In this document: positions 22,526-52,929 of the stretch, in pieces | How the letters are laid out: each line of letters begins with the position of its first letter | How positions within the stretch are numbered: the first letter of the stretch is position 1 | From: Bugula neritina | Lineage: Eukaryota > Animalia > Bryozoa | Direction: 5' to 3' | DNA length: 64,000 bases | Assembly (NCBI GenBank): GCA_964035545.1 | Contig: OZ037769.1 | Location: 16,336,633 to 16,400,632, forward strand | The notes under the pieces: generated by a model | Databases searched by the model: none | What the model was told of the DNA's origin: nothing | What the model saw: only the letters and a program-made list of their open reading frames with translations | Program-made: the position numbers and the translations under genes

Positions 22526-24049
22526 ACATATTAATTGATAAGATTACAATATTCCTATATTCACTACATGCAGATGTTATTAGTTGTACTAGTAGTTGCA
22601 TATACAGCTTAGTAATAATATTCTAATCTATTAAATATTCCACATCTTGCCACGTGCTCTATATTTCTACACATAATATAATATTGCTGTATATATAATG
22701 TTGTTGGATGATACAATTAGCTAAGATGAAAAATTCTTATGTGCATTTTGTCAGTGTAGGTGTGAACTGCACATGCTCCATAGAGAAATAGAAATACTGA
22801 GTATAACATACTGAAAACCACTCTGCTGTACAGTTATAATGTTGCTGTTAATTTTGTTATTGATAAGCAGATTTGATGACACATAAATATATTATGATAT
22901 ATCCGTGTTCTTAGCATATTTCTAATTGTCAAAACTCTGGTATAAAATCACAATAATAAGCTAGCATTGGAAATTAAGGAATAAGTATATCATTGGAAGT
23001 TATAGCTAGATTGCCATGAGCAGCATAGCATTTTATTGCATGCAAAACAAAGTATATTTGTAGAGCTGTGTTCAACTCACATGCAGTTACTATTGTTTGA
23101 GGCCGTCCATTATTCCGGAATACAATAATGTTATTATGATTATTAGCTACGGCGTTGCATGCATTTTAGCTAATCGTTGTTGTTGCTAACGGGTTCAATA
23201 CATTCGGGGGTTCCCCTTTCAATAATATTATTGTGTTCCTACGCACCCATGTAAGTAGTTAGGTGTACTGCGCGTTCCCGTTTACGTCGGCTCGGTTTAC
23301 TTTTAGATTTATAGTATTAGTATTACAATTATTTTATTAATATTATCTTTACTGTATAGACTTAGTTTTTTTATTATTACAAAACTTAGTATATGCCTAT
23401 CACCAGTAACATTTTACCATTGTGTGACTGAATGGGTATGTAATACTAATAATAAATCGCGTTGAGTTTGTCTGTCAAAGTGAAACTGAAAGTGAATGTC
23501 AAACGCAATGCAACATTAGTAATTAACTATTATTAGTATAAATATTAATATCAACTGTATCAGTACGGATATCAGCATGAATTTGAGTGTCTAATTCTAT
23601 GACTCAAAGTATCACGATGCCTGTTACTATAACTATTACTATTAGTATTAATAGATCACGCAGTGATAATCTTATTTTGTCAATGAGCTCTGATCGTTTA
23701 TGCATTTTGTAGTATTGTAGTGAGGACGTAATACGCGCGTCCCCCAAACCCCTTCAGCCTATCCGAGTGCGTCACGTGATAACCCTCAGCGAGTAGTAGT
23801 TTATCAGTAGAGAGAGCGTACTAACTAAGTGAAGATGTAGTTTTAATCTGCGTACTTTTTGTATCTTGCCATATACTTAGTAGCGAATAAACTTTGTAAA
23901 CTCTTACTTAAATACTTTATTGATGTGGATAAATAGACTATAATTACAAGCTAGGAACCCACGCATAGTAATTACACAAATTACTACAGTGGTGGCAGCG
24001 GTGGGATCTCTAGCTACTATATAAGGACAATGAGAAGTATTAGAACATC

Positions 24050-25267
24050 ATGGACGAGAGTGTAACTTCAATGGAATAAGGTGAGCGAAACATTATTATA
24101 GGCCCTCTCGGAGCTGGAGAGGAGGTATATAGGAATACATTGGAAGTTCCCGTGTTCACGGGCCTCGAGGATGTCGAACAGTTTATCCAAGAGTTCCGTG
24201 AAGTTGCAGCCATTACAAGATGGCCGCCAAGAGTAACTCTTACGAAACTGCGGATGGCACTGACGGAAGAAGCCAAGCCGTACGGGTGGAAGCCTAGCGT
24301 AAACGGGATCATTGCTACACTACGGGCCCGTTTTGGCATGTCCGTTGCCGTCGCCAAGTCCAGGCTGCGAGGATTACTCCGCAAGACATGTACACCGCTT
24401 CCTGACCACGCCACTCTGGTGCAGAGACTGGCACGGACCGCGTATAGCGATCTGCCAGAAACACACAGACGGCACTATACATTCGAAGCTTTTGTGCAGT
24501 CCCTCAACTCTTTGGACTTCCACCACCAGTTACAAGCCAAGGGAGTAACCACGATCGAGGCTGCAATCCAAGAGAACAAGGCCTACGCTGGAGCCGAGCG
24601 ACTCTATAAGACGGAAGAGGCCACTCCCCGGACCTCTAGGGAACCAGACCATCCGGTCCGCATAGCTGCCGCGACCATTAAACCCCCCATAGAGATGGAG
24701 ATAGGCCGCTTGATGACTAAACTGGGACAATTGGTGGCGACGATAACATACAACCACTCGAGGAAAAGTAAGAGGCCGGCCACAAAGCCCCCCAGACCTA
24801 TGATGCAACGCAGGGAAAGCGGCAACCAGGGGCACCGCCGCCCAAGCGGCCCACGATTCAAACGGCAGCAGAAACCACAACCTCCCCGGAGACCTCCAGA
24901 GCTCCGCGGGCCCAAACCGAGAGGAAAACGGGGTGGATGTCGCCAGGAGCCCGTACGGGCCCAGCGGCACGCCCCCCGTCAATGGCAAACACCCCGCCGA
25001 AACCAGCCAACCGGGTCGACCACGAGACCCCTTCTCTCTTCCTCTCACCAACCGCTTCGGTCCGTTACCAGTAATGGAGCAGACCAGCGAGGCCCCTCAG
25101 GGCATCGGGGAGGATCAAAACACCCCCCCGCAAGGAAACTCTCACCGGCCCCGCAAACCGCGGAACAAACGGGCACAGCCCCGTTCGGCCGAGACCGAGC
25201 ACGCTGGGGGAGTACGGGTACAACCTCACGGAGGCAGCTACTTCTTGCCAGGGAAGGTGGCCGGTAA
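24050..25267 (+). CDS. gag: Gypsy Gag of element 1 (in-frame TAA at codon 10; zinc knuckle degenerate)
   Basis: ATG at 24050 is in frame with ORF 24140-25267; VPVFTG..EQFIQEF..W capsid-like region is homologous to the Gag of elements 2 and 3; TAA at 24077-79. Confidence 0.8.
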
Positions 25268-28200
25268 AGCTGTCACCTTCCTGTTAGACTCCGGGTGTAC
25301 CACTAATCTCCTCAGCCGTCGGGTCTTCGACACCCTCCCTCTCAAGGAGAGGGGAGCCTTAGCTCCCTGTACCGGGGAACCGGGCACCCTAGCTGACGGG
25401 TCACGGATTCCTTTCTACGGTATCATAGAATTGACTGGGCGCGTCCGCGACCAGGCCATTCAGGAAACCTTCGTCATTAGCCCACTTGAGGAAGATGCCA
25501 TACTGGGGATGCCGTTCTTGAAGAGACACGGGTGCCATATCGACTTTAGCAAGTCAGCCATGCTAATGGGCGGCAAAGAGCTCACCTGTGTCGACAAGTT
25601 CGGTCGTCCCCTAGCGGGAGGTGTGCAGGTAGTACGGAACTGTACTATACCCGGCCGCTCCCGGGCTACCGTTCACTGCAGAGTGAACAATAGCCAACTC
25701 TCGGGGTTAGGGGTTGTCGAAGGTGCGCACACTAGAATCCAACTCGCCAGCAGTCTTAACCGGCTGACTGACCGAGGAGAGATCTTGGTGCAGTGTGTCA
25801 ACCCCTTCTCCGAAGCGGTACAATTACCGTCAGGATCCATGCTGGGTCGCTTCCACTCCATCCAGGAGGAGGATATAGGGCCGTCGCTGGGAGCTGCGAC
25901 GGAAGGTCCCCAACAGAGCCCGTCAGTTAGGCGGGGGACCGTCCCACCACACGTCAAAGAGCTATACCAGGCAGCGTGTGACGGCTGCACGGGCAACGTG
26001 GAACGCCAGACCATGGCTCAGTTGCTACGTGATTATAGCGACGTGTTCAGCAGCGGGGACCATGACGTCGGCCTGACCACGGCCGTCCGGCATGAGATAC
26101 CGCTAGCTGCAGGGACTACCCCTATTCGACAGCCCACTAGGAGGCTGGGACCCGAGAAGGAAAAGGAGGTCAGCCAACAAGTCCGGGATCTTTTGGACCG
26201 CGGCCTCATCGAGCCAGCACATAGTGCGTGGAGTTCGCCGGTCGTTCTGGTCCGAAAGAAAGACGGCAGTTGGCGGTTCTGTGTGGATTATCGCAAGCTC
26301 AATAGCGTGACCATACAGGACGCCTACCCCTTACCCAGGATCGACAAATCTCTGGACGCCTTAGCCGGCAGCAAGTACTTCAGTACGCTAGACTTGTTGA
26401 GCGGCTATTGGCAGGTCCCCCTCAGCCCAGACGCCCAGGAGAAGGCGGCGTTCATCACGCGGGACGGCTTATGGAAGTGGAAGGTCCTCCCCTTCGGACT
26501 GACTTCTGCCCCCGCCACGTTCCAGCGGCTCATGGAACAGGTCCTCAGTGGACTCCACTGGAAGACACTGCTAGTATACCTCGACGACGTCATCGTGATC
26601 TCCCCAGACTTCCAGACACACGTCAGCCGTCTGCGGGAGGTCTTCGATCGACTCCGAGGCGCCAATCTGAAGCTCAAACCCTCCAAGTGCGCTCTCTTGC
26701 AGCCAGAGGTGAAGTACCTGGGGCACGTCGTCGGCCGACACGGTGTGGCGACGGATCCTGAAAAGGTACGAGCTATAGAAGATTGGGTAACCCCTCAGGA
26801 TTTGACCGGACTACGGGCTTTCCTGGGGCTGGTAGGGTATTACAGGCAATACATACCAGACTTAGCGGGGGTAGCGCAGCCATTAAACCGGCTCACCGCA
26901 AAGGGGGTGACCTGGCAGTGGACTCCCGTCGAACAGAGAGCGTTCGACTGCCTCAAGGGCCGCCTGCTGGAGGCCCCTATCCTGGCCTATCCAGACCCTG
27001 CCCTGGAGTACATCCTCGATACTGACGCCAGTGACCAAAATGTCGGCGCTGTGCTGTCCCAGGTGCAGGAGGGCCGCGAAGTAGTCGTGGCCTACTACAG
27101 TAAGTCTCTCTCGCCCACTGAACGAAATTACTGCACTACCCGAAAGGAACTGCTGGCAGTAATCAAGTCGGTGAAGCATTTCAGACCTTATCTATACGGC
27201 AGGAAGTTCCGCTTGCGGACCGACCACGCCTCCTTGATTTGGTTATGCAAGAGAGCAGAACCGTCCAGCCAAGTCGCCCGATGGCTCGAGGTCCTGGCCG
27301 AGTTCTCTTACCGGATCGAGCACCGACCCGGTAGGAAACACGGCAATGCTGATGGACTGAGCCGGCGACCGGACGAAGGGTGTAAACAGTGCCTCAACAT
27401 CGAGAAGAGGGATGGAGGTCCTCCAAAATCCGAGTTGAGAGCACTGAACCACTCTGAAACGGAGTATGACTGGAACCAGGGTCAACTCCTACAGAAGGCC
27501 GCTACGCCCCCGGAGGCTATCCAACGCCTCCGTGCCAATCCTGTCTTGGCTGATAACGTTAGGGAGCTACGAAGACTCCAGGAGGACCTCCCTGGAGTGG
27601 TAGCCGACGTATATCGTGCCAAAAAGGAGGGGCGACGACCCAGTGAAGAACAACTGCGACAGGGATGCACCGAGTTACGGTCGTACTGTCAACGTTGGGA
27701 CTCCCTGCGGATCGGGCCAGATGGTCTGCTGACCATCACAGTGGCCGCTCACAACAACCAGTACGGCAGGAAGAGGGTGATCTGCCCAGCCGCCATACGC
27801 CGTGAGTTAGTATGGGACACCCACAAACAGGCCCACGCCGGGGTAAGCAGGGTGCTCTCCAAGTTACAACTCCGGTGGTACTGGCCCGGCATGGAGCGTG
27901 AGGTGCGGCGTAGAGTCAAACAATGCGAAATCTGCCAGGCCAGCAAGCATGGCCGTCTCCCTGGCGAAGCGGGACGGCGTAGGCTATATGCTGGGAGGCC
28001 ATGGCAGGTGGTAGCTATCGACCTAGTCGGACCCATGCCCGTCACCCCCAGAGGAAACAGTTGGATCCTAGTATTAACCGACCACTTTACACGGTGGGCG
28101 GACGCCCTGGCTATTCCAGATGCGTCCGCCCCCACGGTGGCCAGGGTGCTAGACCAAAATGTATTCTGCTATCTTGGACTACCTGAGCAAATACATTCGG

Positions 28201-28694
28201 ACCAGAGGGCTCAATTCCAGTCCCAACTGTTGAGCGACCTCTGCCGCCTCTGGGGAGTAAACCAAAGCAGGACCACCCCGTACCATCCTCAGGGCAACGG
28301 GGTGGTGGAACGCAACAACCGCATGTTGGGCGATGCACTGCGCAGTCTGCTCCTCGGCCGGAGTCAGGAGGAGTGGGATACGGTACTGCCGCAAGTCATG
28401 CGGGCCTACCGTAGTACACCACACACCAGTACGGGGGAAACCCCTAACCTCCTGATGCTCGGTCGAGAGACGCGAGTGCCTGACCACCTCACATACCACA
28501 TCCCAGAGCAAGACTATACCATTCACGAATATGCCAGTAAATTGATAGAGGACGATATCCCCCCAAACTCCCTACCCGTGATGGTACTGCAGGTGGTGCC
28601 CCATCCCGAACCCTTCTCACGCCGGTGCTCACAAACAATTACTCAGTGTGACAATATTATAGTAACCTACCAGTATGCAGCTCTACCTCTATAG
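24933..28694 (+). CDS. pol: Gypsy Pol: aspartic protease, reverse transcriptase, RNase H, integrase (C-terminus apparently deleted)
   Basis: LLDSGC (PR); WRFCVDYRKLN, LPFGL, YLDD (RT); DTDAS..TDH (RH); HxxxH..CxxC, IDLVGP, HSDQ, VERNNR (IN); PR-RT-RH-IN order is Gypsy. Confidence 0.97.
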   Translation: MDVARSPYGPSGTPPVNGKHPAETSQPGRPRDPFSLPLTNRFGPLPVMEQTSEAPQGIGEDQNTPPQGNSHRPRKPRNKRAQPRSAETEHAGGVRVQPHGGSYFLPGKVAGKAVTFLLDSGCTTNLLSRRVFDTLPLKERGALAPCTGEPGTLADGSRIPFYGIIELTGRVRDQAIQETFVISPLEEDAILGMPFLKRHGCHIDFSKSAMLMGGKELTCVDKFGRPLAGGVQVVRNCTIPGRSRATVHCRVNNSQLSGLGVVEGAHTRIQLASSLNRLTDRGEILVQCVNPFSEAVQLPSGSMLGRFHSIQEEDIGPSLGAATEGPQQSPSVRRGTVPPHVKELYQAACDGCTGNVERQTMAQLLRDYSDVFSSGDHDVGLTTAVRHEIPLAAGTTPIRQPTRRLGPEKEKEVSQQVRDLLDRGLIEPAHSAWSSPVVLVRKKDGSWRFCVDYRKLNSVTIQDAYPLPRIDKSLDALAGSKYFSTLDLLSGYWQVPLSPDAQEKAAFITRDGLWKWKVLPFGLTSAPATFQRLMEQVLSGLHWKTLLVYLDDVIVISPDFQTHVSRLREVFDRLRGANLKLKPSKCALLQPEVKYLGHVVGRHGVATDPEKVRAIEDWVTPQDLTGLRAFLGLVGYYRQYIPDLAGVAQPLNRLTAKGVTWQWTPVEQRAFDCLKGRLLEAPILAYPDPALEYILDTDASDQNVGAVLSQVQEGREVVVAYYSKSLSPTERNYCTTRKELLAVIKSVKHFRPYLYGRKFRLRTDHASLIWLCKRAEPSSQVARWLEVLAEFSYRIEHRPGRKHGNADGLSRRPDEGCKQCLNIEKRDGGPPKSELRALNHSETEYDWNQGQLLQKAATPPEAIQRLRANPVLADNVRELRRLQEDLPGVVADVYRAKKEGRRPSEEQLRQGCTELRSYCQRWDSLRIGPDGLLTITVAAHNNQYGRKRVICPAAIRRELVWDTHKQAHAGVSRVLSKLQLRWYWPGMEREVRRRVKQCEICQASKHGRLPGEAGRRRLYAGRPWQVVAIDLVGPMPVTPRGNSWILVLTDHFTRWADALAIPDASAPTVARVLDQNVFCYLGLPEQIHSDQRAQFQSQLLSDLCRLWGVNQSRTTPYHPQGNGVVERNNRMLGDALRSLLLGRSQEEWDTVLPQVMRAYRSTPHTSTGETPNLLMLGRETRVPDHLTYHIPEQDYTIHEYASKLIEDDIPPNSLPVMVLQVVPHPEPFSRRCSQTITQCDNIIVTYQYAALPL

Positions 28695-29275
28695 ACTATT
28701 CCCTTACAAGTGCCTCCCGCCGGTGTCATTGTGTATTCACTGTTATATTTTTTTTATATATATACATGTTTTTCTTATTACTGTACATAGCCATGTTCTT
28801 TCTTTTATGTGCCACACGCTCTCTCAGTTTTTTTTAGTTTTATAACGTTTTATGTCTGAATTAATTGTATCTGTGTTATCAGAAAGTAGGGCTTTCTGCT
28901 GGGGGGGGCGGTGTAGTGAGGACGTAATACGCGCGTCCCCCAAACCCCTTCAGCCTATCCGAGTGCGTCACGTGATAACCCTCAGCGAGTAGTAGTTTAT
29001 CAGTAGAGAGAGCGTACTAACTAAGTGAAGATGTAGTTTTAATATGCGTACTTTTTGTATCTTGCCATATACTTAGTAGCGAATAAACTTTGTAAACTCT
29101 TACTTAAATACTTTATTGATGTGGATAAATAGACTATAATTACAAGCTAGGAACCCACGCATAGTAATTACACAAATTACTACAGTATCATGAATGAAGT
29201 TGGGGATGGACAGTATTCTAGTTGGTTTTTGTGCTTCCGTTTTGTTTTTGATGTTTGTGTTTTCAGGGTATTCCG

Positions 29276-34850: not shown

Positions 34851-36007
34851 CTCACTGGCCTAGAAGTCTTGAAAGTTGTCTCCTCGTACATCATGTTGTA
34901 TACAAGAGATGATAACTCATTATCTGTCATTAAAAACTAAATAATATTCAACTAAATCACAATAAATTATTGAAGTATCATTTATATGTACAGACAACTC
35001 CCAAGTAGTAGTGCATTTCCATGTTTCCAGTGTGTTCAACACAAAATTGTGAGGACATCATGTCTTTAGCTAATTCCTTCTGTGTATGTAAAGCACGTAG
35101 TTTTCTTACGTCCACCCTTTATAATACCTGTACACTATTGTAAGATCTCAAGCTAAGAGTTTGAAACATGTAGCAGTATAATAAACACAATGGGATCTAC
35201 TTATTAGTATGTAACAACACTATACTGAATATATCACTGATCTACTACTACTAATTACACCCATCAGTATTGTATATCTCACACATATATTTACAAATAC
35301 CACTAAATATATCCTCAGAAGCTCTCTCTATATTATACTCTGTATGTGTTACAAGTATACAGTAAACACTGCCACATGAACTAATACTGTTGTGAGCTTT
35401 AGCACACAATTATCAAGCGTGGATTGCCGGCGTATTTAGTTTCAATTTAACTAGCAACTACTAACAGAGGTTGCGTACGATAACCTTTATTTAATTCGAT
35501 AAACATAATTATAACAGTATGTCAAAACCACAATACATCAATCAATTACAACACGTCTTACTACTACGAGCCTCGGCTCTCAACAACATGGTTTCTGCTA
35601 GCTAACCCGCGAACAGTCACTTGACCGGAACCTTGCCTTCCGGTCCTTCTGATTGGATAGTAGAACATAGTTACAAGTATTCCCATACAGGAGGAGACAA
35701 ATGCATTATTATGCTACGTAATCCCATTACACCGCCCCCTCCAGCAGAAAGCCATACTTTCTGATAAAAACAGAAATAGTATAATAATGCAAAAATAACA
35801 CAAGTAAAGAAAACCCACAAAGAGAAAGAAAAGAAACATCAAATGTATGACATATATAAACACATAGTAAGATAACGGAGGGCCAGTGTACAACTGGCCA
35901 GCTATGAAGAGAGAGTCCTGGATCATAGGTCATTAGCAGTCGAGCATTTACATGATCACAATGTAGTACCCCGGGAACATGCGGGTGGAATTGTCAACTG
36001 TCAGCTC

Positions 36008-37028
36008 CTACTTTCGTAGGGATTCGATCCGGTGTCGTGCCTGCCGTGCACGTAGCCTACGCTTTAGGCGTCCTACTGAGCCTTTCAATTCACTAAGGCC
36101 CATTGTGGTACTGAGTAGATCGGGAGCCAACTGGGTGAGTTCATCCTGTAACCGTGAGAGTCTTTCTTCGACGGTTGCTAGTCGGGTAGGCCTGGTTGGG
36201 GTTGGCGTCGCTTCTTCTGGAGAGTCTGATGCTTCCATAGGGGTATCGTCTGGTCGCGGTATGATCGCGGCGACCGTTTTCACCATAGGGGACTTCTGAC
36301 GGGCGGCTGTTAATAATGCATAAAATCCGGAGGATAATGCGGCCCAGGTTAAAGCCTTCTTAACCATTGGTTTGACCGCTTCTAGGTATTGGTTGTAATT
36401 GTCCGCGTCTACTACATAGCCCTCGCCTGCGAAACAGTCCATCATGTGAGCCAGGACAGGGTATGGATACACGTCGTGAAATCCACACGGACAAAACCGT
36501 AGCAGGAAGTGTGCATTCACATGCAGCCGTAGTCCTTGGTGTGAGGGAAGCTCTTCGTAACACACGTGGCAGGTGTGTTGTGACCTACTCGGTCCCCAGG
36601 CTTCTTCAATTTGCCGCTCCGTTCGTCGCGACACCCATCTGTGTCTTCGACGCAGCACCGCGGGCAGTCCGTTATCCATTTCCGGTCCGTCATCCAAGAG
36701 AGAGTGTAGATCCTGTGACCCAGAGTTGGTCGATCGAGTGTGATCTGCAAGAGTATAACAGTGTAAGGGTACACTGAGTACAACCGGCGGAAACAGCCTG
36801 GTGGGTACTTAACTCAATTAGACACTCGTGAGACTCAGTTAATGAATAGTTGATCGAAAACACACACTGCTGTAACAGACTGTTAAGTCTTAGAGTCAAT
36901 GTGAATTCTCACCACTAGAAATCATTACCGAGTCTCCAGCTTACTTTATTATAGTTAAGCTGATTAATACAGTTTAGTTCTCGTACCAAAAACATAACTA
37001 ACTCACCCCTCGATTCTTGGCAAGCCAT
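36008..37028 (-). CDS. Spliced accessory gene of element 2: C2H2/C2HC zinc-finger plus coiled-coil protein, about 252 aa
   Basis: join(37007-37028, 36008-36744): ATG GCT TGC CAA GAA TCG AGG G|gtgagt..ttgcag|AT CAC is in frame with ORF 36008-36697. CHVC-x12-HVNAH, CPC..H..C and C-terminal heptads with a basic tail. ATG context, intron phase and protein are conserved in element 3. Confidence 0.72.
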
Positions 37029-37057
37029 TGTGAATGAGAGTGGTATGTTTATGAATT

Positions 37058-39421
37058 CTACGTACGTCTACTCAAAGCTGTATTAATGTGGTGAAAGAGC
37101 GAGCAGCGTGGTTGTGAAACGTGACTATGACTTATTACCTCCGGCGTATGAATCTTATTTGAATTTCCGCCGAGGCAAAAGTTGATATTTTCGTGGTGCT
37201 CACAACTCCCACGCTCTGCTCCCTTCCCCTCACGGCGTCTCGTAGGACGTTTGACCGCGCCCTTAACGGAACGTGGTAAGTCCTTGCGATACGCGGGGCC
37301 TGGCTTGGGACACCGTTTCCAAGGTGTCGTCACTAACCAAGGCGGTTTACGCACCCGTGGACGGTCACGTCGCTTGGGTGGTGCCTTCAGCCAGTTTGTG
37401 ACAAATGGAGCTTTCCTAGCATCTCCGTTCGGAGCCTGGGGAAGTGTTATCTCCAGCCATGGTGGTTTACGCACCCGTGGACGGTCACGTCTCACAGGTG
37501 GTGCTTCCAGCCAATTTGTGACAAATGGAGCTTTCCCAGTACCTCCGCACGGAGCCCCTCCCTTGGGGGGTTTTTGCACTTCCAGGTCGGTTCCTGACCT
37601 AGAAAGTGGCGGTGGCGGCTTGCACGCTAACGGCGGTGAGCGCACTTCCCTGAACGGGTGTGGCTTTTCCTGCCTCGCCACTGCTTTGGGTTGCATACTA
37701 GGCGGTTTGTCGACCAGGTTAGCAGTCTCCGTCTGCCCGGGTCTTTCTGCACTTTGCCTTCGCCGCCCTACTTCCTCAGTAGGGGGGCCGTGCTCACTGA
37801 CCCGGCAGACTCCGCACTGCCCAACGCTGTGTCGTACATCACGCTCCATGTGAGGCCAATACCACCAGAGTTGTAGTTCGGTGAACACCTGTTGGGCTCC
37901 CCCATGAGCCTGTTGGTGTACCTCTTCTATCAACTCTTGGCGGATGGCGGCAGGACAGAGGGTCCTCTCCTGGTCTGGCTGGTGGTGGTTATCGGCCAAG
38001 GATATGGTCAGTAGACCATCCGGCCCGATCCGCAGTGCGTTCCAACGTCGGCAGTACAGCTGCCACTCAGGGCAGCCCTGCTTCCGTTGTCTGTCACTGG
38101 GTCGTCGCCCTTCCCGTTTCATTCGATAGACGTCGGCTACCACCCCCGGAATAATTTCCTGGAGGTGTCCTAGCTCCTTGACGCCATCGGTTGAGACAGG
38201 TTCGGCGTGGGGGTCCTGTGCCACTGCTGGGGGCATGTCAGGATCCCCAAGGTGAGGTGTAGCTTCGGTTTTGTGTAGTGACGTGGCCGTCTCTGGGCGC
38301 TGTTCGTCATCCACGCAACCGTCTGATGTTGTCCCACGGGTCTCCTGGCTGTGGGGTGAGGCAGTCCTTCGCCCGAAGGGCGGCTTCTCTAGAGGACTTT
38401 TCATCGCGGTTTCCCGCGATGGCCTGCTGTCGTCTTCTTGAACAGAAGGAGTACAGCTTAGTGGAGAGGTGGGTGGTAGGCTCACTGGTTCAGAGGGGGA
38501 GTGGAGGCATGGCACCGAGGTCTTTCCTTTCCGTGTCAGCTGGTTAGAGCTGCGGACAGGTGGGACTTTCGGGTGCGCGCTCTCTACAGCTCCCGGCCTG
38601 GAGGTACGGCCACCGTCTACCTTGCGGTGGACGGTGCCCCGGGAGTGGCCAGGCATAGTACAAGTACGTACTACCGGCTCTTCTCCCGTTAGGGGATGGC
38701 CAAACTTATCGACACAGGCGAGCTCCCTGCCGCCCATAATCATCGCAGATTTACCAAAATCAATGCGGCATCCGTGTCGTTGTAAGAATGGCATCCCAAG
38801 GATGGCGTCCTCCTGGAGTTGTCCTACAATGAACCTTTTCTGGATGGTCTGGTTACAGACGCTCCCAGGGAGTTCAATGATACCGTAGAAGGGGATGCAC
38901 GACCCGTCTGCCAGGGTGCCATGATCGCCTTCATACGGTTCCAACCTGCTTCTGATCTGAGCGCTGAGTGTGTCGAAGAATCGACGACCCAGAAGGTTGG
39001 TGGTGCAGCCCGTGTCCAGCAGATACCTGGCAGGTTTGCCGGCTATCTGTCCTGGCAGGAACAGGCTGCTCTCGTGGGGATGTAGTGGTATCTTGGGTGA
39101 CCTCATCTCCCTCGCCTTGGCGGAGGGGTTAGGTTCTTGACGACGATTCGGGACCAGCTGTCGAGGGGTTGGTGCCGCGCCTTGCTGCGTTTGGGCACCT
39201 TTCCTCGCAAACTCTGCGGTCCGTCGTTTGTCAAACCTGTTGCGGGGTAGCATTGAGAACACCGGCGGCGAGCGGCTTGTACAGCTTGCTTGCCGTCCTG
39301 GTGGCCGTTCCGCGAGGTCCCGGCCGGGTGTCCGGCGTGGCGGACGCCACTGTGTCCTCCCTTGGGGTTTTAACGGCGGCCCGCCGGATGTGGGAGCATC
39401 CGCGGGCCGTCGTAGTTTAAC
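37058..39421 (-). CDS. pol: Internally deleted Pol of element 2 (protease, integrase zinc-finger remnant, tail), -1 frame relative to gag
   Basis: YLLDTGCTTNLL protease; HQQAH..CGVC; no YxDD, RNase H or DDE region; the frame stays open for about 790 codons. Confidence 0.85.
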   Translation of the reverse strand, partial: VKLRRPADAPTSGGPPLKPQGRTQWRPPRRTPGRDLAERPPGRQASCTSRSPPVFSMLPRNRFDKRRTAEFARKGAQTQQGAAPTPRQLVPNRRQEPNPSAKAREMRSPKIPLHPHESSLFLPGQIAGKPARYLLDTGCTTNLLGRRFFDTLSAQIRSRLEPYEGDHGTLADGSCIPFYGIIELPGSVCNQTIQKRFIVGQLQEDAILGMPFLQRHGCRIDFGKSAMIMGGRELACVDKFGHPLTGEEPVVRTCTMPGHSRGTVHRKVDGGRTSRPGAVESAHPKVPPVRSSNQLTRKGKTSVPCLHSPSEPVSLPPTSPLSCTPSVQEDDSRPSRETAMKSPLEKPPFGRRTASPHSQETRGTTSDGCVDDEQRPETATSLHKTEATPHLGDPDMPPAVAQDPHAEPVSTDGVKELGHLQEIIPGVVADVYRMKREGRRPSDRQRKQGCPEWQLYCRRWNALRIGPDGLLTISLADNHHQPDQERTLCPAAIRQELIEEVHQQAHGGAQQVFTELQLWWYWPHMERDVRHSVGQCGVCRVSEHGPPTEEVGRRRQSAERPGQTETANLVDKPPSMQPKAVARQEKPHPFREVRSPPLACKPPPPLSRSGTDLEVQKPPKGGAPCGGTGKAPFVTNWLEAPPVRRDRPRVRKPPWLEITLPQAPNGDARKAPFVTNWLKAPPKRRDRPRVRKPPWLVTTPWKRCPKPGPAYRKDLPRSVKGAVKRPTRRREGKGAERGSCEHHENINFCLGGNSNKIHTPEVISHSHVSQPRCSLFHHINTALSRRT

Positions 39422-40302
39422 CCTGGTTGAAGTCGGGGACAATGCTTCTGGAAGTGTCCTGGTCTTCCGCACCCCCAGCAGGATGGTTGTCCTCTACTAG
39501 GCGACTGCACCGGTGGCCCGTCAAGCTCACTGGTGATGCCTAGCTGGCTTTCCAGGGCGGAGACTAGTTCGGCTAGCATGTCGGTCATTCGTGCGACCTG
39601 TGATGCCACCGTCATCTGCGTCACCTTGCCCACCGCTGGAGTTTCCGCATGAGAAGCGGTAGGAGCAGCGGAGGGCTCCATGTCAACCTGGCGAGAAATC
39701 ACACGGCTCCGGTGCAGCTGGCTGGCCAGGAGGTAAGCCTCCCCTTCCGCCAGCGCACCTTCGACCGTGGTGACTCCCCTCGCCAAGAGTTGGTGATGGA
39801 GTCCCAAGTCGTTGATGGACTGCACGAAGGCATCATAGGTATACCTCTCACGGTTTACTGGCGGCAGATCGCGGAATGCAATCTGCGCCAGTCTCATAAC
39901 CGTGGTAGCGTGCTCTTGTAGCGGCGTGTGAGGATCACGCCGTAGTCTTTGCAGACGGGCCCGCGCATCTACAGCGGAGATACCAAAACGGGCCCGCAGG
40001 GAAGCAAAGATGCCGTCAATGTCGGATCCCACTCCGTACGGCTTGGCTTTGTCTGACAGCGCCATCTTGAGCTTGAGCAATGCTATTCTAGGCGGCCATT
40101 GTGCAACTTCCATTACATCTTGGAATTCCTGAACGAATTGCTCCACCGGCTCCTCACCTGAGAAGGTGGGTACCTTCAGCCGGTACTTCTCTTCGTAACA
40201 TTCCCTATGCACTCGCACTTCTGGTTCTATAGGTATAGCAATGTTATCTTCCTCACCTTCATTCCTCCGAATGGGTAGCTCTGTGCCTCTGTCTGTTGCC
40301 AT
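39370..40302 (-). CDS. gag: Gag of element 2 with CCHC zinc knuckle
   Basis: ATG at 40302 just after the PBS; KVPTFSGEEPVEQF capsid-like region; CWGCGRPGHFQKHC knuckle. Confidence 0.9.
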   Translation of the reverse strand: MATDRGTELPIRRNEGEEDNIAIPIEPEVRVHRECYEEKYRLKVPTFSGEEPVEQFVQEFQDVMEVAQWPPRIALLKLKMALSDKAKPYGVGSDIDGIFASLRARFGISAVDARARLQRLRRDPHTPLQEHATTVMRLAQIAFRDLPPVNRERYTYDAFVQSINDLGLHHQLLARGVTTVEGALAEGEAYLLASQLHRSRVISRQVDMEPSAAPTASHAETPAVGKVTQMTVASQVARMTDMLAELVSALESQLGITSELDGPPVQSPSRGQPSCWGCGRPGHFQKHCPRLQPGLNYDGPRMLPHPAGRR

Positions 40303-42514
40303 TTTGAAATACGCGAAATCCCACCGCTGCCACCACTGTTGTGAGCTTTGGCACACAATTATCAAGCGTGGATTGCCGGCGTATTTAGTTTCAATTTAAC
40401 TAGCAACTACTAACAGAGGTTGCGTACGATAACCTTTATTTAATTCGATAAACATAATTATAACAGTATGTCAAAACCACAATACATCAATCAATTACAA
40501 CACGTCTTACTACTACGAGCCGGCTCTCAACAACATGGTTTCTGCTAGCTAACCCGCGAACAGTCACTTGACCGGAACCTTGCCTTCCGGTCCTTCTGAT
40601 TGGATAGTAGAACATAGTTACAAGTATTCCCATACAGGAGGAGACAAATGCATTATTATGCTACGTAATCCCATTACAATACTCAGTTGTAATTAACTAT
40701 CTAATTCTATACTGACTCAGTGTGATTAATATAGTTGGTGTTACCTCACAATACTTAGGTTGTCTTCTCCTTGTTTCATTATTGTCTATCTCTTGTTGAA
40801 TGTGTAAATACTCAAGGATTTCTAATAAAGAGACAATATTGATGGTTTATTCTGGTGTCTAACACTAAAAATTAAAGAATTATGTAACACAGCCTCTGGT
40901 ACTACCTAAAATGTTGGGGTGGGGAAACACTACTCTATAGCTGAACTGTAGCAGTGAGGAACACAACACTAAATTATAGAAAAGTTTCAATAACATCACC
41001 TCATGTCTGTTATTCAAGAGTTATACTTAGATTTCCAGCTACTCTGTTTACATCTGAAATAATGAATTATTATTATTATACATACAGTAATATTCTATTC
41101 TTCCACATATAACGGCCTATTTATAATATTTGTTATCATTTTCCACCCCTTTTCAACTTATAATTGATAAGATTACACTATTCCTATATACACTACATGC
41201 AGATGTTATTAGTAAGACTAGTAGTTGTATACAGCTTAGTAATAATATTCTAATCTATTAAATATTCTACATCTTGCCATGTGCTCTATATTTCTACACA
41301 TAATATAATATTGCTGTATATATAATGTTGTTGGATGATACAATTAGCTAAGATGAAAAATTCTTATGTGCATTTTGTCAGTGTATGTGTGAACTGCACA
41401 TGCTCCATGGAGAAATAGAAATACTGAGTATAACATACTGAAAACCACTCTGCTGTACAGTTATAATGTTGCTGTTAATTTGGTTATTGATAGGCAGATT
41501 TGAGGACACATAAATATATTATGATATATCCTTATTCTTAGCATATTACTGTTTATGTCTGTGAGTATTCCAATGTTTTGTAATTGTTATTGTAATTGTC
41601 TGTGGATAAACATATATATTGAGATAAGGAAGTTTGGATTAGTTTGGAGTGTTAGGTAATCTTTAATCGGTCTCAAACCATAAGCCAGAGAATGTACTAC
41701 AAACACACAATAAAGTAATATTAGCATAAGTAAGGTTTAGACACAAAAGATTGTATAACCGAGTACATGTAATTACTATAACGTATGATACAGAGTATAA
41801 ACATAATACAAATTAATATAATAACATTGTAACAATAGACTGATGGTGGGGAGGCCCAAACATGTGTCGAACAAAAATTTAAATAAAATTTATAAAATAA
41901 ATTTTGTAATTTATAATTGATAACTGAATTGAATAACTGAATTAAATAATTAAATCGGATTAAATTGAACTTCTGGTTTAGTCAGATTGGTCAGTTAAAA
42001 TGAAGCGAAGTTACTTATTAGCTTTTAGTTTCAAAATTTCTATATAATTTGCAGTTAATTAATTAAAAATAAGAGTTATCTTTGCTCGACAAATATTATG
42101 GTTTGGAAATCATGTAGTAATGTGTATATGCGGTTCTATGTATATTGTGTAATGGTTAGCACTCAGGCTAATATTCTGTGAGACAAATTTGGGATTTGCT
42201 CCCCCAGAAGAATTGAAATTATAATATATGTGCGTGTTGTATAATATATATATATATATATATCTATTTAATGATAATGACAAAGCAAGCAAATCACAAT
42301 AGCAAAAATATTACAAGAATGAACCAAAACAAAGATTGTCCTAGCGACCCTTTGAAATCCTGCTGTGTTATACTAGCAACAGAAATAGCTAAGTTTGACA
42401 ATTGGGATAGAAAGGCTTATACGAAATTGAATACACAATGAGAATTGTAATTAGAACATCAATATTAAAATATATGTTTTAACATAAACTCATACAGCCT
42501 TGAAATAAATTCTT

Positions 42515-46944: not shown

Positions 46945-48045
46945 GCTAGATTGCCTTTAGCAGCATAACATTTTATTGCATTCAAAACAAAGTATATTTG
47001 TAAAGCTCTGTTCAACTCACATACAGTTATCATTGTTTGAGGCCGTCCATTATTCCGGAATATAATGATATTATTATGATTGTTAGTTACGGCGTTGCAT
47101 GCATTTTAGCTTATTGCTAACGAGTTCAATGCATTCGGTTTGCCGGCGAGGGGAATCCCCCTTTCAATAATATTATGTTCCTGCGCACCCTTGTAAGTAG
47201 TTAGGTGTACTGCGCATTCCCGTTTACATTAGCTCTGTTTACTTTTAGATTTATAGTATTAGTATTACTATTATTATATTAATATTATCTTTACTGTATA
47301 GACTTAGTTTTTTATTATTACAAAACTTAGTATATTCCTATCACCAGTAACATTTTACCATTGTATGACTGAATGGGTATGTAATACTAATAGTAATAAT
47401 AAATCGCTTTGAGTTTGTTTGTTAAACTTAAAGTGAAACTGAAAATGAATCATTGAATGTCAAACGCAATGCAAAATTAGTAATTAGCTACTATTAGTAT
47501 AAATATTAATATCAACTGTATCAGTATGGATATCAGCATGAATTTGAGTATCTAATTCTATGACTCTCAAAGTACCACTATTACTATTAGTATTAATAGA
47601 TCACGCAGTGATAATCTTCTTTTGTCAATGAGCTCTAATCGTTTATGCGTTTTGTAGTATTGTAATGGGACACGCAATCTAATAATATGGGTTGTTTCCC
47701 CTAATCACTATGTGGAATACTTATCGCAATCATACGTCGTCCAATGAGGAGAACCGGAAGGCTAGCTTCCTGTAATGTGACTTGTTCCCGGGTTTATTAA
47801 CATTTACCTAGTTAGTCGTGTGCGTACTCTTGTGCTGTAAACATGTATTAGTAGTTGACTGATGTTAGCACGTATTATTGTAATGTTTGTCTCATTGTTC
47901 ATTGTACTAAATATAAGTAATTACTCGCCAGCTACCCTAGTAATTGCTAGTACTTGCCAATACTGAATACCTCGGGAAATCCACACGCTAACTCTTGTGT
48001 AACCCACAACAGTGGTGGCAGCGGTGGGATTGTGCTTATATCAGA

Positions 48046-50247
48046 ATGGCAGAAGAAGACAATAAACTACCCATTCCAAGGGATGAAGAGGAGGAAGATG
48101 ACATTGTTACACCTGTAGACCCCGCAGTTTGGGATATGGTGAGAGTCGTTATAGGATTCGAGGAGACTATATATCGGCTGAAGATACCCACCTTTACAGG
48201 TAAAGAATCAGTAGAACAATTCATTCAAACTTTTCAAGACCTGAGGAATTTTGCACGATGGCCACCAAGAATGGCGCTGCTCAAGCTTAGGACAGCGTTG
48301 ACGGACAAGGCCAAGCCATACGGCGGGGGAACTGACACTGCCAGTATCTTTGCTTCTCTGCGGGCCCGTTTTGGCATCTCCGCCATGGACACGGAGCCAT
48401 CCACGGCTCCCGCACCCCGCGGGACGACGAAGAAGCCCCGAAGGAGAACTAGACCCAAGCCGCGCCGCCGGGGGCCACCCCGAGACGGACTCGATGAGCT
48501 GCCGACCTCAGAGACTGCGAGGAAGACGAAGACGCTGTACGAGGCGCCGTCTTCCCCTCCGCAGCTGGTCCACAGCCATCCTCTAACGGGAGAAGAGCCC
48601 ATAGCACATACCTGTACTATGACTGGCCACTCCCGGGGCACCATAGACCGCAAGGTAAACGGTGCCCACACCTCCAGGGAAGGAGTTGTAGAGAGCGCAC
48701 ACACGAGTGTCCCACCTGCCCGCAGCTCTAACCAGCTGACACGGAGCGGAAAGACCTCGGTGCCATGCCTCCAACCCCCCTCGGAGACGGTGAACCTGTC
48801 ACCTCCTACACTAAGCTGTACTCCCTCTGTTCAAGAAGGCGACAGCAGACCATCGCGGGAAACCGCAGTGAGAAGTCCCCAAGAGAGCCCGTCTCTAGGG
48901 CGGAGGACTGTCTCACCCCACACCCCGCACAGCCCGGGGAACCGTGGGCAGACACCAGACGGTTGTGTAGACAACGGGAAGCGCCAGGAGACGGCCACGT
49001 TGCTACACCAAACCGAGGCTGTACCCCACCTGGGAAACCCCAATTCACAGCTCCACGTAAGCTGTTGTCCCGGGGAGGCACCACTGGTGGCGGAGACTGC
49101 CCCTCTTCATCGTGCATTGCCACATAGAGGTTCGCCGCAGTCCAACCTAGGAGACGGGGATCCAACCCCACCTCCACAGAGGGCTGACATGCCCCCGGAG
49201 GTAACACAGGACCTCCGCGCCGAACCTGTTTCAACCGATGGCGTCAAGGGGCTACAATACCTTCAGGAAAATCTTCCGGGGGTGGTAGCCGACGTCTGTC
49301 GAGTGAAACGGGAAAGGCGACGACCCAGTGCCAAACAACAATTGAGACAGGAATGCGCCGAGTTACGGCTATCCTGTCGACGTTGGGATTCACTGTGGAT
49401 CGGGCCGATTGGTTTGCTGACCATGCTTGTGGCTGCCACGCTAGGACTACCCACTGGGGAGAAAATAGTCTACCCGACTGCCATACGCCGGAAGCTAGTA
49501 TGGGACACTCACAAGCAAGCTCTCGCAGGAGCTCAGGGAGTGCTCACCAAATTACAGCTCCGGTGGTATTGGCCCTACATGGAGTCGGAGATACGACGCA
49601 GAGCGAGACAGTGCGAAACCTGCCAGGCCAGCAAACATGGCCGTCCCCCTGACGAAGCGGGGCGGTGGAGCAAACATGTAGAGAGGCCCTGGCAGGTGGA
49701 GGCTGTCAACCTGGTCGGAAACATGTGTGGGACACCACAAAGAGGCGTGGTGAGGCGTGGAAGGCCACTTCCAGCTCAAGAAGTGTGTCAACCAGCTACT
49801 AAGCCACCACCACCACTTCTAGAACCATCCACAGGTTCAGAAGTGCAAAAACCCCCCGAGGGAGGGGCTCCATCCGGAGATACCAAGGAAACTACACCAC
49901 CAGAACAGCATCCTAAGCAAATCCCAGTGCACAGAAAGGACTTAGTACGTGACCGCATCATGTGCGGCAGGTGCAAAGATTCTACTGGGCACCGCATGGG
50001 AAAACGGGCGAACATCGACTTTTGCCTCGGCGGAATCACAAATGAGATTCCTACGCCGGAAGCAAAAATCCTAGTCACGTTGTACAACCACGCTGTTCAC
50101 TCTTTCCTTACACTGATGCAGCCACGAGTAGACGTACATAGAACAGTAACATTACCACCCTCATTCAAAATGTCTTACCATTCTGGATCGAGGGGTGAGT
50201 TAGTTATGTTTTTGGTACGAGAACTAAGCTACATCAGCCAGCTCTGA
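48046..50247 (+). CDS. Fused Gag N-terminus / Pol-remnant ORF of element 3 (no PR active site, RT, RH or IN core)
   Basis: LKIPTFTG..ARFGISA (Gag) joined in frame to the PR-RT linker and WDTHKQA..CETC (IN zinc finger) remnants. Confidence 0.75.
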   Translation: MAEEDNKLPIPRDEEEEDDIVTPVDPAVWDMVRVVIGFEETIYRLKIPTFTGKESVEQFIQTFQDLRNFARWPPRMALLKLRTALTDKAKPYGGGTDTASIFASLRARFGISAMDTEPSTAPAPRGTTKKPRRRTRPKPRRRGPPRDGLDELPTSETARKTKTLYEAPSSPPQLVHSHPLTGEEPIAHTCTMTGHSRGTIDRKVNGAHTSREGVVESAHTSVPPARSSNQLTRSGKTSVPCLQPPSETVNLSPPTLSCTPSVQEGDSRPSRETAVRSPQESPSLGRRTVSPHTPHSPGNRGQTPDGCVDNGKRQETATLLHQTEAVPHLGNPNSQLHVSCCPGEAPLVAETAPLHRALPHRGSPQSNLGDGDPTPPPQRADMPPEVTQDLRAEPVSTDGVKGLQYLQENLPGVVADVCRVKRERRRPSAKQQLRQECAELRLSCRRWDSLWIGPIGLLTMLVAATLGLPTGEKIVYPTAIRRKLVWDTHKQALAGAQGVLTKLQLRWYWPYMESEIRRRARQCETCQASKHGRPPDEAGRWSKHVERPWQVEAVNLVGNMCGTPQRGVVRRGRPLPAQEVCQPATKPPPPLLEPSTGSEVQKPPEGGAPSGDTKETTPPEQHPKQIPVHRKDLVRDRIMCGRCKDSTGHRMGKRANIDFCLGGITNEIPTPEAKILVTLYNHAVHSFLTLMQPRVDVHRTVTLPPSFKMSYHSGSRGELVMFLVRELSYISQL

Positions 50248-51307
50248 CTACACTAGTCAAAAGAGCTGGAGACTCGATAATGAAAAACAGTGGTGAGAAA
50301 TACATTTGACTTTGAGGCCTTAGTGGTTTACTATAGCGATGTATATTCTCGATCAACTATTCATTACTCGAGTCTCACGAGTGTTATAACTGAACAAATT
50401 ACTGGTCAGGCTGTATACGCCGGCAGTACTTCAGTATGATCAATATACTGTTGGATGTTTTCAGATTACACTCGAACGACCACCTCCAGGTCACAGGAGC
50501 AGCTACCCCTATCAATGGACGACGGACCGGAAGTGGACCGCGGACTGCCCGCGGTGCTCCACCAACGACACAGATGGGTGTCGCCAACGACGGAGAAGAA
50601 GATTGAGGAAGCCTGGGGGCCCCCGTCAGATCTGCGGAGTCTGTCACATGAGATGTCCCGCATACTGCGCTCTACGGTTACAAGTAGACGCACGCTTCCT
50701 CCTCCACTTCTGCCCGTGTGGATTCCACGACGTGTTCCCATACCCTGTCACACTACATAAGATGGATTGCTTTCCAGGAGAGAACCACGTAGTCGACGAA
50801 GACTGTTTCCCCGCATTCATAAATGCTATACGGCCCGTCCTCAAGAAGGCCATCACCCTAGCGGCACTAGACATAGGGTTCCAGCAACTACTCTTCACTG
50901 CCCGCCAACAATCCCCCTTAATCAGGAGTCCACCCACCGTCACCACAGACAACACGACACCCCCTGAAACGGAGTAGAGTGAACCTCCTCCACAACCCAA
51001 ACCCAGCCGACTGGCAACAGTCGAAGAACGGCTGCTACGACTCCAGGAAGAATTCACACAATTGGCCCCGGATCTGCTGAGTACCACCACAGGATTATAC
51101 CAGCTGAAAGACTCCGTGGGGCGCCTAAAGAGGAGACTGCGTGCACGTCAAGCACGACACAGGTCCCAATCGCTGCAACAGAGAGGACTGGTCTGCGGAT
51201 TCCTGACTCCCTGTCTTAGACGGAGCGCCACGTCGTATCATATAACATGCCGCGTCCCGCTGGCTCTTGATCCGTGCAACAATCCGACACCACTACATCC
51301 TCTGTAG
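50170..51307 (+). pseudogene. Disrupted copy of the spliced zinc-finger/coiled-coil accessory gene in element 3
   Basis: join(50170-50194, 50465-...): MSYHSGSR-D-YTR..DDGPEVD..EEAWG; frameshift near 50620; in-frame TAG at 50975-77; then RLATVEERLLRLQEE..SVGRLKRRLRARQARHR as in element 2. Confidence 0.75.
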
Positions 51308-52929
51308 CTGACAATAAGCCACATCCCGTCGGCTGTCAACCTGTGTGCCTATCCACGGGTACTTCTCTCTCTATGGCTGACCAGCTGTGTGCTAACTCTT
51401 ATATACATATATTATTCTTGTAATGATATTTCTCTTCTTTCTCTTTGTGAGTTTAGTTTGTGTATACATATTATTATCGTGCTTGTCTTTTTAATATTGT
51501 ATTTTGTTATCAGAAAACGGGGGCTTTCTGCTGGGGGGGCGGTGTAATGGGACACGCAATCTAATAATATGGGTTGTTTCCCCTAATCACTATGTGGAAT
51601 ACTTATCGCAATCATACGTCGTCCAATGAGGAGAACCGGAAGGCTAGCTTCCTGTAATGTGACTTGTTCCCGGGTTTATTAAAATTTATCTAGTTAGTCG
51701 TGTGCGTACTCTTGTGCTGTAAACATGTATTAGTAGTTGACTGATGTTAGCACGTATTATTGTAATGTTTGTCTCATTGTTCATTGTACTAAATATAAGT
51801 AATTACTCGCCAGCTACCCTAGTAATTGCTAATACTTGCCAATACTGAATACCTCGGGAAATCCACACGCTAACTCTTGTGTAACCCGCAACAGTATCAT
51901 GAATGAATCTAGGCATGGACAGTATTCTAGTTGGTTTTTGTGCTTCCGTTCTGTTTTTGATGTTTGTGCTTTCAGAGTATTCCGATGGCTGAAGCTACAG
52001 CTGAGCAGATAGAATGTGGATTCTGTGTAACCAGACTAGAAGATCTAGAAGATTCCAGATCTCTGCCTTGTTCTCATGTACACTGTTTAAGATGTCTGCT
52101 GGGGAACTTTGAGGTCAATAAGATAGTGAGATGTCCCTTCTGCAGGTATCACCTTCCTTCGAGATATTCTCAGTTTCAGTTTTGTTTACTCATCATTGTG
52201 AGTTCTACTATATTATTGTGTGTTATATTCTCTACTGAGTGAGATGTATTGTATACTGTGATGAGTTAGTAACTACTTTACTGTATTGTATAGGGAAGTA
52301 TTTGATGTTGACATTTACTCTCTTCCTACCTCCAACACCAGAGAAGCTCCATCTCTGTACTGTGATAGTTGTACCAGGAAAGGAGTGAATAATCAGCCAG
52401 CTGTTATTTACTGTAAAACTTGTTCTACTAAACTGTGTGCTAAACACAGAGAGGTGAGTTGACAGTCTTAGTGTCTAGACATCAATGTGAATGTCAAGGC
52501 TACAAAATTTAACTAAATAGTTTTATATTATTCAATATGCTTCGGCTTGAGTTCTGACTTTAAAGTTGTGTTTTGTCCTTCATATGGCGCAGTTTCATGA
52601 TGAGGCCCTTGAAGGCCACCCTATGATCACCATGACTGACTACAGAGCGCAGGCTAGTAAACTAGAACCTAGACTATGTACTAAACACACGGAAGTCTCA
52701 TACAGTCTGGGGTGTAGAAGTTGCCTCGATCTGTTTTGTGCGGAATGTGTTGGTGCTTTGGATAAATGTGCAGATGGTAAGCATAGTGATTTAAAATTTG
52801 AAAGTATGCTTTTTGTTGTAAAAAAAGCACAATTTTGCTATATGAATAAAGGTGTCACTATAAGGTGCCTGAATAAAACTGTGTCAGTTTATACAAGTTG
52901 TATAATATTTTCTTTGATATATAAGCTCT

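What the first reader, a model, noticed from the sequence alone, without database searches (positions are those of the whole stretch)
36008..37080. RT-less Gypsy elements carry an extra, intron-containing gene for a zinc-finger/coiled-coil protein in the env position
Seen: elements 2 (36008-37028, minus) and 3 (50170-51307, plus) have clearly diverged LTRs. Both keep, between pol and the PPT, the same ATG context (cattca[c/a]aATG), an identical ~35-nt donor block (TCGAGGG|GTGAGTTAGTTATGTTTTTGGTACGAGAACT), a phase-1 intron of ~260-270 nt whose removal gives an open frame, and a homologous protein. The protein has CxxC-x12-HxxxH, a second CxC..H..C cluster, a Pro/Thr linker, then a heptad coiled coil with a basic tail (RLATVEERLxRLQxExTQLAPDLLSTT..SVGRLKRRLRARQARHR). 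Both also have a pyrimidine tract plus YAG about 50 nt before the ATG (AG at 37079-78 and 50120-21), suggesting a subgenomic mRNA spliced from the 5' LTR. Known: errantivirus env is made from a spliced RNA at this position, but Env has a signal peptide and TM helix, which this protein lacks. Inference: a soluble nucleic-acid-binding, oligomerising accessory factor (trans-activator, anti-silencing or targeting factor). I do not recognise the family.
Basis: partly seen in the sequence, partly recalled or inferred. Interest (0 to 1): 0.88.

Follow-up and report, generated by a model that had tools for sequence, protein, structure and literature searches.

The report
Gypsy accessory gene spliced from gag
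An animal Gypsy jumping gene carries, where retroviruses keep env, a conserved extra gene for a double-zinc-finger, coiled-coil protein that close relatives make by splicing from the start of gag, and it likely regulates the element's own RNA, perhaps as HIV Rev does.

Summary
Element 2 has an intact 737-nt coding exon (36744-36008, minus). Element 3's copy is broken (frameshift, stop, lost His ligands). The best-supported first exon is the first 46 nt of gag (40302-40257). Contigs from two presumed-RNA runs and database protein P0002 show that join in relatives, like env in idefix-type errantiviruses. The protein is soluble: a ~100-residue C2H2+C2HC module (AlphaFold pLDDT 94, no Pfam or clear fold match), a Pro/Thr linker, a coiled coil and an Arg-rich tail; dN/dS 0.26. 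A profile finds 135 clusters at 50% identity, including bryozoan proteins and a Gypsy Pol with the module fused after integrase. Most likely it regulates unspliced genomic RNA like Rev or CERV (about 40%); DNA-binding regulator and targeting factor are live rivals. Function is untested. New variant of a known kind; I found no description of the family.

The parts
35388..40678 (-). Element 2: young Gypsy LTR element lacking RT, RNase H and integrase core; 4-bp target duplication GTAT
   Evidence: empty paralogous sites at ~61374 and ~11654 hold one GTAT
40337..40678 (-). E2 5' LTR (99% identical to 3' LTR 35388-35731), followed by an 18-nt primer-binding site (tRNA-Leu assignment recalled, not tested)
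40257..40302 (-). Best-supported first exon of the accessory gene: gag ATG plus 15 codons and one base, ending at a phase-1 donor AG|GTGAG
   Evidence: (P0002), 23 table 7 (runs X4, X9), 100
39370..40302 (-). gag ORF with a weak zinc-knuckle match
37058..39493 (-). Deleted pol: protease and integrase H2C2 finger kept; RT, RNase H and integrase core missing
36745..40256 (-). 3.5-kb intron of the subgenomic RNA (most of gag and all pol); folds better than shuffles almost throughout, unlike exon 2
36745..37195 (-). Conserved, mostly non-coding block predicted to fold into several stems; candidate response or packaging element
37007..37028 (-).
   Evidence: P0114, P0121
36008..36744 (-). Main coding exon of the accessory gene, intact in E2
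36368..36637 (-). Double zinc-finger module (W..T...I helix, C2H2, CxC-x12-H-x3-C, V-D strand and helix)
36014..36184 (-). Predicted long coiled-coil helix ending in an Arg/Lys-rich tail (11 of the last 25 residues)
35732..35742 (-). Polypurine tract; the ~40 nt before the 3' LTR are shared by all three elements
47661..51893 (+). Element 3: more deleted relative (no protease match either); gag donor changed to non-GT
50013..50464 (+). E3 copy of the folded block
50465..51180 (+). E3 copy of the accessory exon, broken (frame change near 50620, stop at 50975-77, finger-1 His residues lost)
23716..29184 (+). Element 1: related Gypsy with PR-RT-RH-IN; pol cut inside the integrase C-terminus; no accessory gene, but a phase-1 donor at the matching place after its gag start

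Best explanation
This is an accessory gene of a Gypsy retrotransposon family, expressed in close relatives from an RNA spliced from the start of gag to an acceptor behind pol, and its soluble double-zinc-finger, coiled-coil protein likely acts in the nucleus on the element's own unspliced genomic RNA, as HIV Rev and nematode CERV do. Model: transcription from the 5' LTR gives one RNA. By default the 3.5-kb gag-pol intron is spliced out (shown for relatives by contig junctions), giving the ~260-aa protein. The protein would then bind, through its zinc fingers and Arg-rich helix and likely as an oligomer, a folded element kept only in the unspliced RNA (candidate: 37195-36745), and would let that RNA be exported, translated to Gag and packaged. 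Shown: gene, selection, junction in relatives, module family, excess folding of the intron. Inferred: nuclear location, RNA binding, oligomerisation, export.
For: Junction: loose ends at 36746 in contigs of runs X4 and X9 (two studies, RNA status guessed by the tool) match the E2 gag leader at 27 of 30 bases and end at the gag donor; P0002 begins with a Gag-like 14-residue leader joined in frame to exon 2. E1 has a phase-1 donor at the same place. Selection: dN/dS 0.26 (95% CI 0.16-0.37, 231 codons, E2 vs E3); pN/pS 0.43, like gag's 0.44. No membrane segment: maximum 19-residue hydropathy 1.02. Basic tail motif in 38 of 53 near homologues. Zinc ligands 94-100% conserved for 7 of 8 positions in 90 diverse sequences. 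The spliced-out region folds better than shuffles (11 consecutive E2 tiles, z -2.3 to -6.0) and the exon does not (z -0.4 to +1.7). The 450-nt block is 70-100% conserved though mostly non-coding, z -5.0 and -5.4, with fewer broken pairs than chance (22 vs 38 expected). Precedent: CERV shares its N-terminus with Gag, comes from a spliced mRNA, has a Cys finger and leucine zipper and is needed for gRNA export (PMC10309623, sections 6, 9, 15 read).
Against: No binding, localisation or export data. Tandem C2H2 fingers are most often DNA-binding (established knowledge), and the weak structural neighbours are DNA-binding fingers such as Kaiso and SALL4 (Z 3.6-3.8). The only NES-like pattern found lies inside finger 1, where it is probably structural. 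Excess folding covers the whole intron, so z-scores do not single out the 450-nt block; the antisense strand passes the pair test too, so the strand is not settled, and both-sided changes are significant from E2's fold (P 0.006) but not E3's (P 0.10). Of 27 variant positions from contigs that I tested, 7 break a predicted pair, 6 keep one and 14 are unpaired (partner changes may be among unlisted rows). The junction contigs are about 80-90% like E2, so they come from relatives, and they could be transcripts of an already-spliced DNA copy. E3 transposed recently with a broken gene and no gag donor, and E1 lacks the gene, so it is not needed in cis. In P0280 the module is fused in frame behind integrase, which fits a targeting role as well.
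Confidence: 0.4

Rival explanations
1. A DNA-binding trans-activator or anti-silencing factor: the tandem fingers would recognise a motif in the LTR or internal DNA, the coiled coil would dimerise it, and it would keep the family transcribed, as VANC proteins do for VANDAL transposons.
For: Finger 1 is a canonical C2H2 finger; the best sequence and fold neighbours are DNA-binding finger proteins (all weak). Bryozoan proteins annotated as host genes carry the module, two of them twice. VANC precedent: PMC6719617, passages read.
Against: E2 and E3 LTRs share only a 55-nt match while their proteins are about 51-65% identical; no repeated DNA motif was looked for or noticed. It does not explain why folding stops at the splice acceptor.
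Confidence: 0.27
2. An integration-targeting tether, like the chromodomain at the end of chromovirus integrase, made here as a separate protein.
For: In P0280 the module lies in frame at the end of a Pol with an intact integrase. All three elements duplicate GTAT, and E1 and E3, with unrelated LTRs, sit at the same base of two paralogous host segments.
Against: E1 shows the same target without the gene, and short target preferences are usually set by integrase itself (established knowledge). About 500 low-complexity residues separate integrase from the module in P0280, so the fusion may only be an open intervening frame.
Confidence: 0.13
3. A Gag-associated structural or packaging cofactor, or a self-limiting inhibitor, acting in the cytoplasm through its Gag N-terminus, zinc fingers and coiled coil.
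For: It shares Gag's first 15 residues; the folded block could be a packaging or dimerisation signal kept by non-autonomous elements.
Against: The shared leader is short and poorly conserved (E2 vs E3 gag starts); an Arg-rich tail suggests nuclear import or RNA binding (inference).
Confidence: 0.1
4. A captured host gene fragment carried as a passenger, with no role for the element.
For: Named relatives are bryozoan 'uncharacterized' or 'C2H2-type' proteins; E3's copy is broken and E1 has none.
Against: Purifying selection between element copies, at least 127 family proteins at 49-96% identity, a splice route wired to the gag ATG, and the module behind a Pol that is 58% identical to E1's while the module itself is only about 30% identical all argue for long residence in the lineage.
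Confidence: 0.06

Closest known systems
CERV of Cer1, a C. elegans Ty3/Gypsy element (PMC10309623; abstract and sections 6, 9, 15 read)
   Same: Non-Env accessory protein from a spliced mRNA that shares its N-terminus with Gag; Cys-based finger, zipper or coiled coil, candidate NLS; the model for the proposed function.
   Different: CERV is 517 aa from 5 exons, partly in gag frames, with H, M and G domains and a C4-type loop. Ours is about 260 aa from 2 exons, coded behind pol, with C2H2+C2HC fingers. No direct sequence comparison was run (no CERV sequence was at hand).
Errantivirus env-F, idefix subclade (PMC12992720; passages read)
   Same: Third ORF behind pol, translated from a subgenomic RNA whose first exon comes from within gag.
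   Different: No signal peptide, furin site, fusion peptide or transmembrane helix; soluble zinc-finger protein.
HIV Rev / RRE (role stated in PMC10309623 section 15 and PMC7264820 passages; details recalled)
   Same: Small protein from a spliced RNA, Arg-rich helix, structured RNA inside the intron.
   Different: Rev has no zinc fingers and has a clear leucine-rich export signal, which is not evident here; no homology.
Non-Env ORF3s of bdelloid rotifer LTR elements and plant additional ORFs (PMC5408684, PMC7264820; passages read)
   Same: Family-specific extra ORFs between pol and the 3' LTR, often from spliced messages, function mostly unknown.
   Different: Those described are GDSL esterase, DEDDy exonuclease, TM or coiled-coil ORFs, or antisense ORFs; the word 'zinc' does not occur in either main text.

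Membership tests
Ty3/Gypsy LTR retrotransposon | LTRs with TG...CA ends, PBS, PPT, target duplication | tested here: met
Ty3/Gypsy LTR retrotransposon | pol order PR-RT-RH-IN | tested here: met
   Complete in E1; E2 keeps PR then IN H2C2 in that order and is 48-55% identical to E1 there
Errantivirus/retroviral Env | Third ORF from a spliced subgenomic RNA | tested here: met
   (relatives; RNA status of runs guessed)
Errantivirus/retroviral Env | Signal peptide and transmembrane anchor | tested here: not met
   Maximum 19-residue hydropathy 1.02 (exon 2) and 0.88 (P0002); 3 of 53 near homologues pass 1.6, none at a terminus
CERV | N-terminus shared with Gag through splicing | tested here: met
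CERV | H, M (C4 loop) and G-protein-like domains, about 517 aa | tested here: not met
   About 260 aa; predicted elements are a C2H2+C2HC module and one long helix, leaving no room for a G domain
CERV | Required for nuclear export of genomic RNA | not testable with these tools
   needs cell experiments
Rev/RRE-type system | Arg-rich RNA-binding helix | tested here: inconclusive
   11 R/K in the last 25 residues, motif in 38 of 53 near homologues; binding untested
Rev/RRE-type system | Leucine-rich export signal | tested here: inconclusive
   One regex match, inside finger 1
Rev/RRE-type system | Structured response element inside the intron | tested here: inconclusive
   Conserved folded block present, but the whole intron folds well and no Rfam match
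Classical tandem C2H2 zinc-finger proteins | C-x2-C-x12-H-x3-H finger | tested here: met
   Finger 1; Pfam zf-C2H2 families match only 6-8 of 90 members at E 0.01
Classical tandem C2H2 zinc-finger proteins | Canonical second finger and TGEKP-type linker | tested here: not met
   Second finger is CxC-x12-H-x3-(C/H), 5 residues after the first, with no such linker

The most novel reading that the evidence does not exclude
An old, widespread clade of marine-invertebrate Gypsy elements runs an independently evolved Rev/RRE-type switch: an undescribed double-zinc-finger domain, made from a gag-spliced RNA (or fused behind integrase in some lineages), licenses export of a highly folded unspliced genome; bryozoan hosts have domesticated the same domain.
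Probability: 0.3. Interest if true: 0.85.

Novelty: new variant of a known kind. Interest (0 to 1): 0.66.

Why it matters
How LTR retrotransposons get unspliced genomic RNA out of the nucleus is largely open; CERV is the one Gypsy protein with that role that my searches turned up. This locus offers a second, unrelated candidate with a defined splice route, a small well-predicted domain without a named family, and a candidate RNA element, so the question is directly testable with a reporter. Even if it proves to be a DNA-binding or targeting factor, it defines an accessory-protein family (135 clusters at 50% identity) that links Gypsy elements to unannotated bryozoan genes.

Tried and rejected
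No whole genome is held, so copy counts and RT-containing carriers in this genome could not be checked. Scans for related loci found nothing in metagenome or viral contigs. The PBS pattern gave 29 metagenome loci; none holds the near family, L004 is a distant Gypsy with an unrelated 3' ORF, and L022 has one weak core-profile hit (E 1e-4) not followed up. No RNA holder was listed for the exact stretch. A search for 1023-2920-aa relatives found none, weak evidence since P0280 exists. The first fold from the narrow alignment was poor (pLDDT 57). Fold searches of the good model gave no match at E 0.001 in PDB or BFVD and best Z 4.0; this does not prove a new fold. ESM Atlas gave only unnamed clusters and C2H2 leads. 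The homodimer prediction gave no verdict. The domain tree (83 rows, 101 columns, near-duplicates left out) is unresolved: the named bryozoan rows fall in at least two places, so the direction of host-element transfer is open. I considered that the donor block is a remnant of the integrase 'SRGDLVWL' motif seen in P0280; tblastn of P0280 gave no hit there. A first tile scan with crude shuffles was redone with exact dinucleotide shuffles. Eight paper searches found no description of this family; Repbase and most subscription papers are not searched, and no supplements were opened.
Full report
Setting. The window is AT-rich animal DNA with spliceosomal introns and repeated RING/NHL-type gene copies. 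It holds three GC-rich Gypsy elements: E1 23716-29184 (+), E2 35388-40678 (-) and E3 47661-51893 (+). Each has LTRs 99% identical to each other, the same 18-nt primer-binding site, a shared 40-nt block before the 3' LTR and a GTAT target duplication. E1 has PR, RT, RNase H and integrase core. E2 keeps gag, protease and the integrase H2C2 finger. E3 keeps less. E2 and E3 both jump from about residue 422-441 to about 897-902 of E1's Pol, so they likely descend from one RT-less ancestor, though they are only about 70% alike.

Observation check. E2's exon 36744-36008 is open. E3's copy is not: it changes frame near 50620, stops at 50975-77 and has lost both His of finger 1. Codon comparison in two in-frame blocks gives dN/dS 0.26 (CI 0.16-0.37, 231 codons); pN/pS is 0.43 against 0.44 for gag and 0.52-0.56 for the pol remnants. 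The gene has been under purifying selection.

The first exon. Exon 2 has 127 relatives at E 0.001 among 840 candidates, the 120 listed being 49-96% identical and unnamed. E2's gag has a phase-1 donor, AG|GTGAG, 46 nt after its ATG (40302-40257); E1 has one at the matching place and E3 has lost it. Laying contigs of four runs on E2, two presumed-RNA runs from different studies (X4, X9) have a loose end exactly at the acceptor that matches E2's gag leader at 27 of 30 bases and encodes P0002's leader. X3 and the DNA run X1 showed none among the rows listed (414 rows hidden). The X9 contig has depth 444, but contig depth cannot rank expression. So the main route is gag donor to acceptor, about 260 aa, as for env in the idefix subclade (PMC12992720, passages). 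Caveats: the contigs are from relatives at about 80-90% identity, RNA status is guessed, and an already-spliced DNA copy could be their source; such a copy would itself be a product of this splice.

The 'donor block'. The 450 nt before the acceptor are 70-100% conserved, as high as the coding exon (53-78%). Against random placement of the same substitutions, 22 pairs break where 38 are expected, and 9 two-sided changes occur where 3.7 are expected (P 0.006); from E3's fold 6 (P 0.10). The antisense strand passes too, and 7 of 27 contig variants break a pair. No Rfam match. A control tempers this: folding excess runs through the whole gag-pol intron (11 E2 tiles, z -2.3 to -6.0) and stops at the acceptor; ten host tiles give -2.1 to +1.4 (12 shuffles each). 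The block is thus a candidate cis element, not a proven one.

The protein. A profile of 48 near relatives finds 135 representatives at E 0.001 among 1.84 billion. The shared part is a ~100-residue module: a W..T...I helix, C-x2-C-x12-H-x3-H, C-x-C-G-x11-H-x3-C, then a V-D strand and helix; seven ligands are 94-100% conserved in 90 sequences, the last Cys 66%. With that alignment AlphaFold gives pLDDT 93.7, pTM 0.85. No Pfam family covers it, and fold searches reach only weak zinc-finger neighbours. Of 53 distant proteins with 80 or more residues after the module, 34 score a heptad pattern above all 20 shuffles (home-made score, near-duplicates included), so finger-linker-coil is a shared plan. 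There is no membrane segment. Of 20 distant proteins looked up, four clusters carry species names, all bryozoan (Watersipora subatra, Bugula neritina). One cluster holds P0280, a Gypsy Pol (RNase H, intact integrase core, 58% identical to E1's) that runs in frame into the same module and a C-terminal helix. Independent of circularity, the near-family profile hit its twin P0240 at E 4e-5 and P0280 hits E2's fingers at E 3e-5. E1's Pol ends before the GPY/F region that P0280 and L004 have, so E1's lack of the gene may be a deletion; RT in P0280's element is not shown.

Mechanism. The splice logic (accessory protein from the spliced RNA, Gag and genome from the unspliced), a folded intron, an Arg-rich helix and the CERV precedent (PMC10309623, sections 6, 9, 15) make a Rev-like regulator of genomic RNA my first choice (0.40). 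A DNA-binding activator or anti-silencing factor (0.27; VANC in PMC6719617, passages), an integration tether (0.13), a Gag cofactor (0.10) and a passenger (0.06) follow. None is tested. The homodimer job gave no verdict.

Novelty. Extra ORFs in the env slot are a known kind (PMC5408684, PMC7264820, passages). Eight searches found no description of this zinc-finger family; PMC13524379, PMC8220671, PMC2836005 and PMC6238403 were checked by keyword passages only, and Repbase and supplements were not seen. Verdict: real, new variant of a known kind, interest 0.66.

Noticed in passing
window 23716 and 47661: E1 and E3 have unrelated LTRs yet sit at the same base of two paralogous host segments (flanks 93-96% identical, older than the 99% LTR pairs), about 90 nt before the ATG of a RING-finger exon; E2 also duplicates GTAT. 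Suggests strong target-site preference.
   Followed up: partly
window 40083-36783, 48561-50360, 24916-28215: The gag-pol interiors of all three elements fold better than dinucleotide shuffles in most tiles, while LTRs, the accessory exon and host DNA do not.
   Followed up: partly
window 24077-24083: E1 gag has an in-frame TAA directly before a phase-1 donor-like AG|GTGAG, and its Pol is cut inside the integrase C-terminus, although its LTRs are 99.6% identical.
   Followed up: no
window 11.5-17 kb, 29.2-35.3 kb, 51.9-58 kb, 59-64 kb: At least four paralogous copies, in both orientations, of a RING plus NHL/beta-propeller (TRIM-like) host gene, each with long 19-21-nt minisatellites near its last exon.
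   Followed up: no
window 15334-17100, 45173-46951, 57849-59621: A ~1.77-kb repeat in three copies at 98-99% identity, probably another recent mobile element.
   Followed up: no
P0198, P0276, P0277, P0268: Bryozoan annotated genes carry the double-finger module; P0198, P0276 and P0277 share an N-terminal motif across two genera, and P0268 and P0276 have two copies of the module: possible domestication or source.
   Followed up: partly
L004:7989-9252: A distant Gypsy with the same primer-binding site has acidic, Pro/Arg-rich open frames behind pol with no detected likeness to this gene.
   Followed up: no
L022:2955-1984 (minus): A 324-aa ORF with a weak hit (E 1e-4) to the core double-finger profile.
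   Followed up: no
window 37324-37556: A 113-nt tandem duplication (83% identical) in E2's post-integrase region.
   Followed up: no
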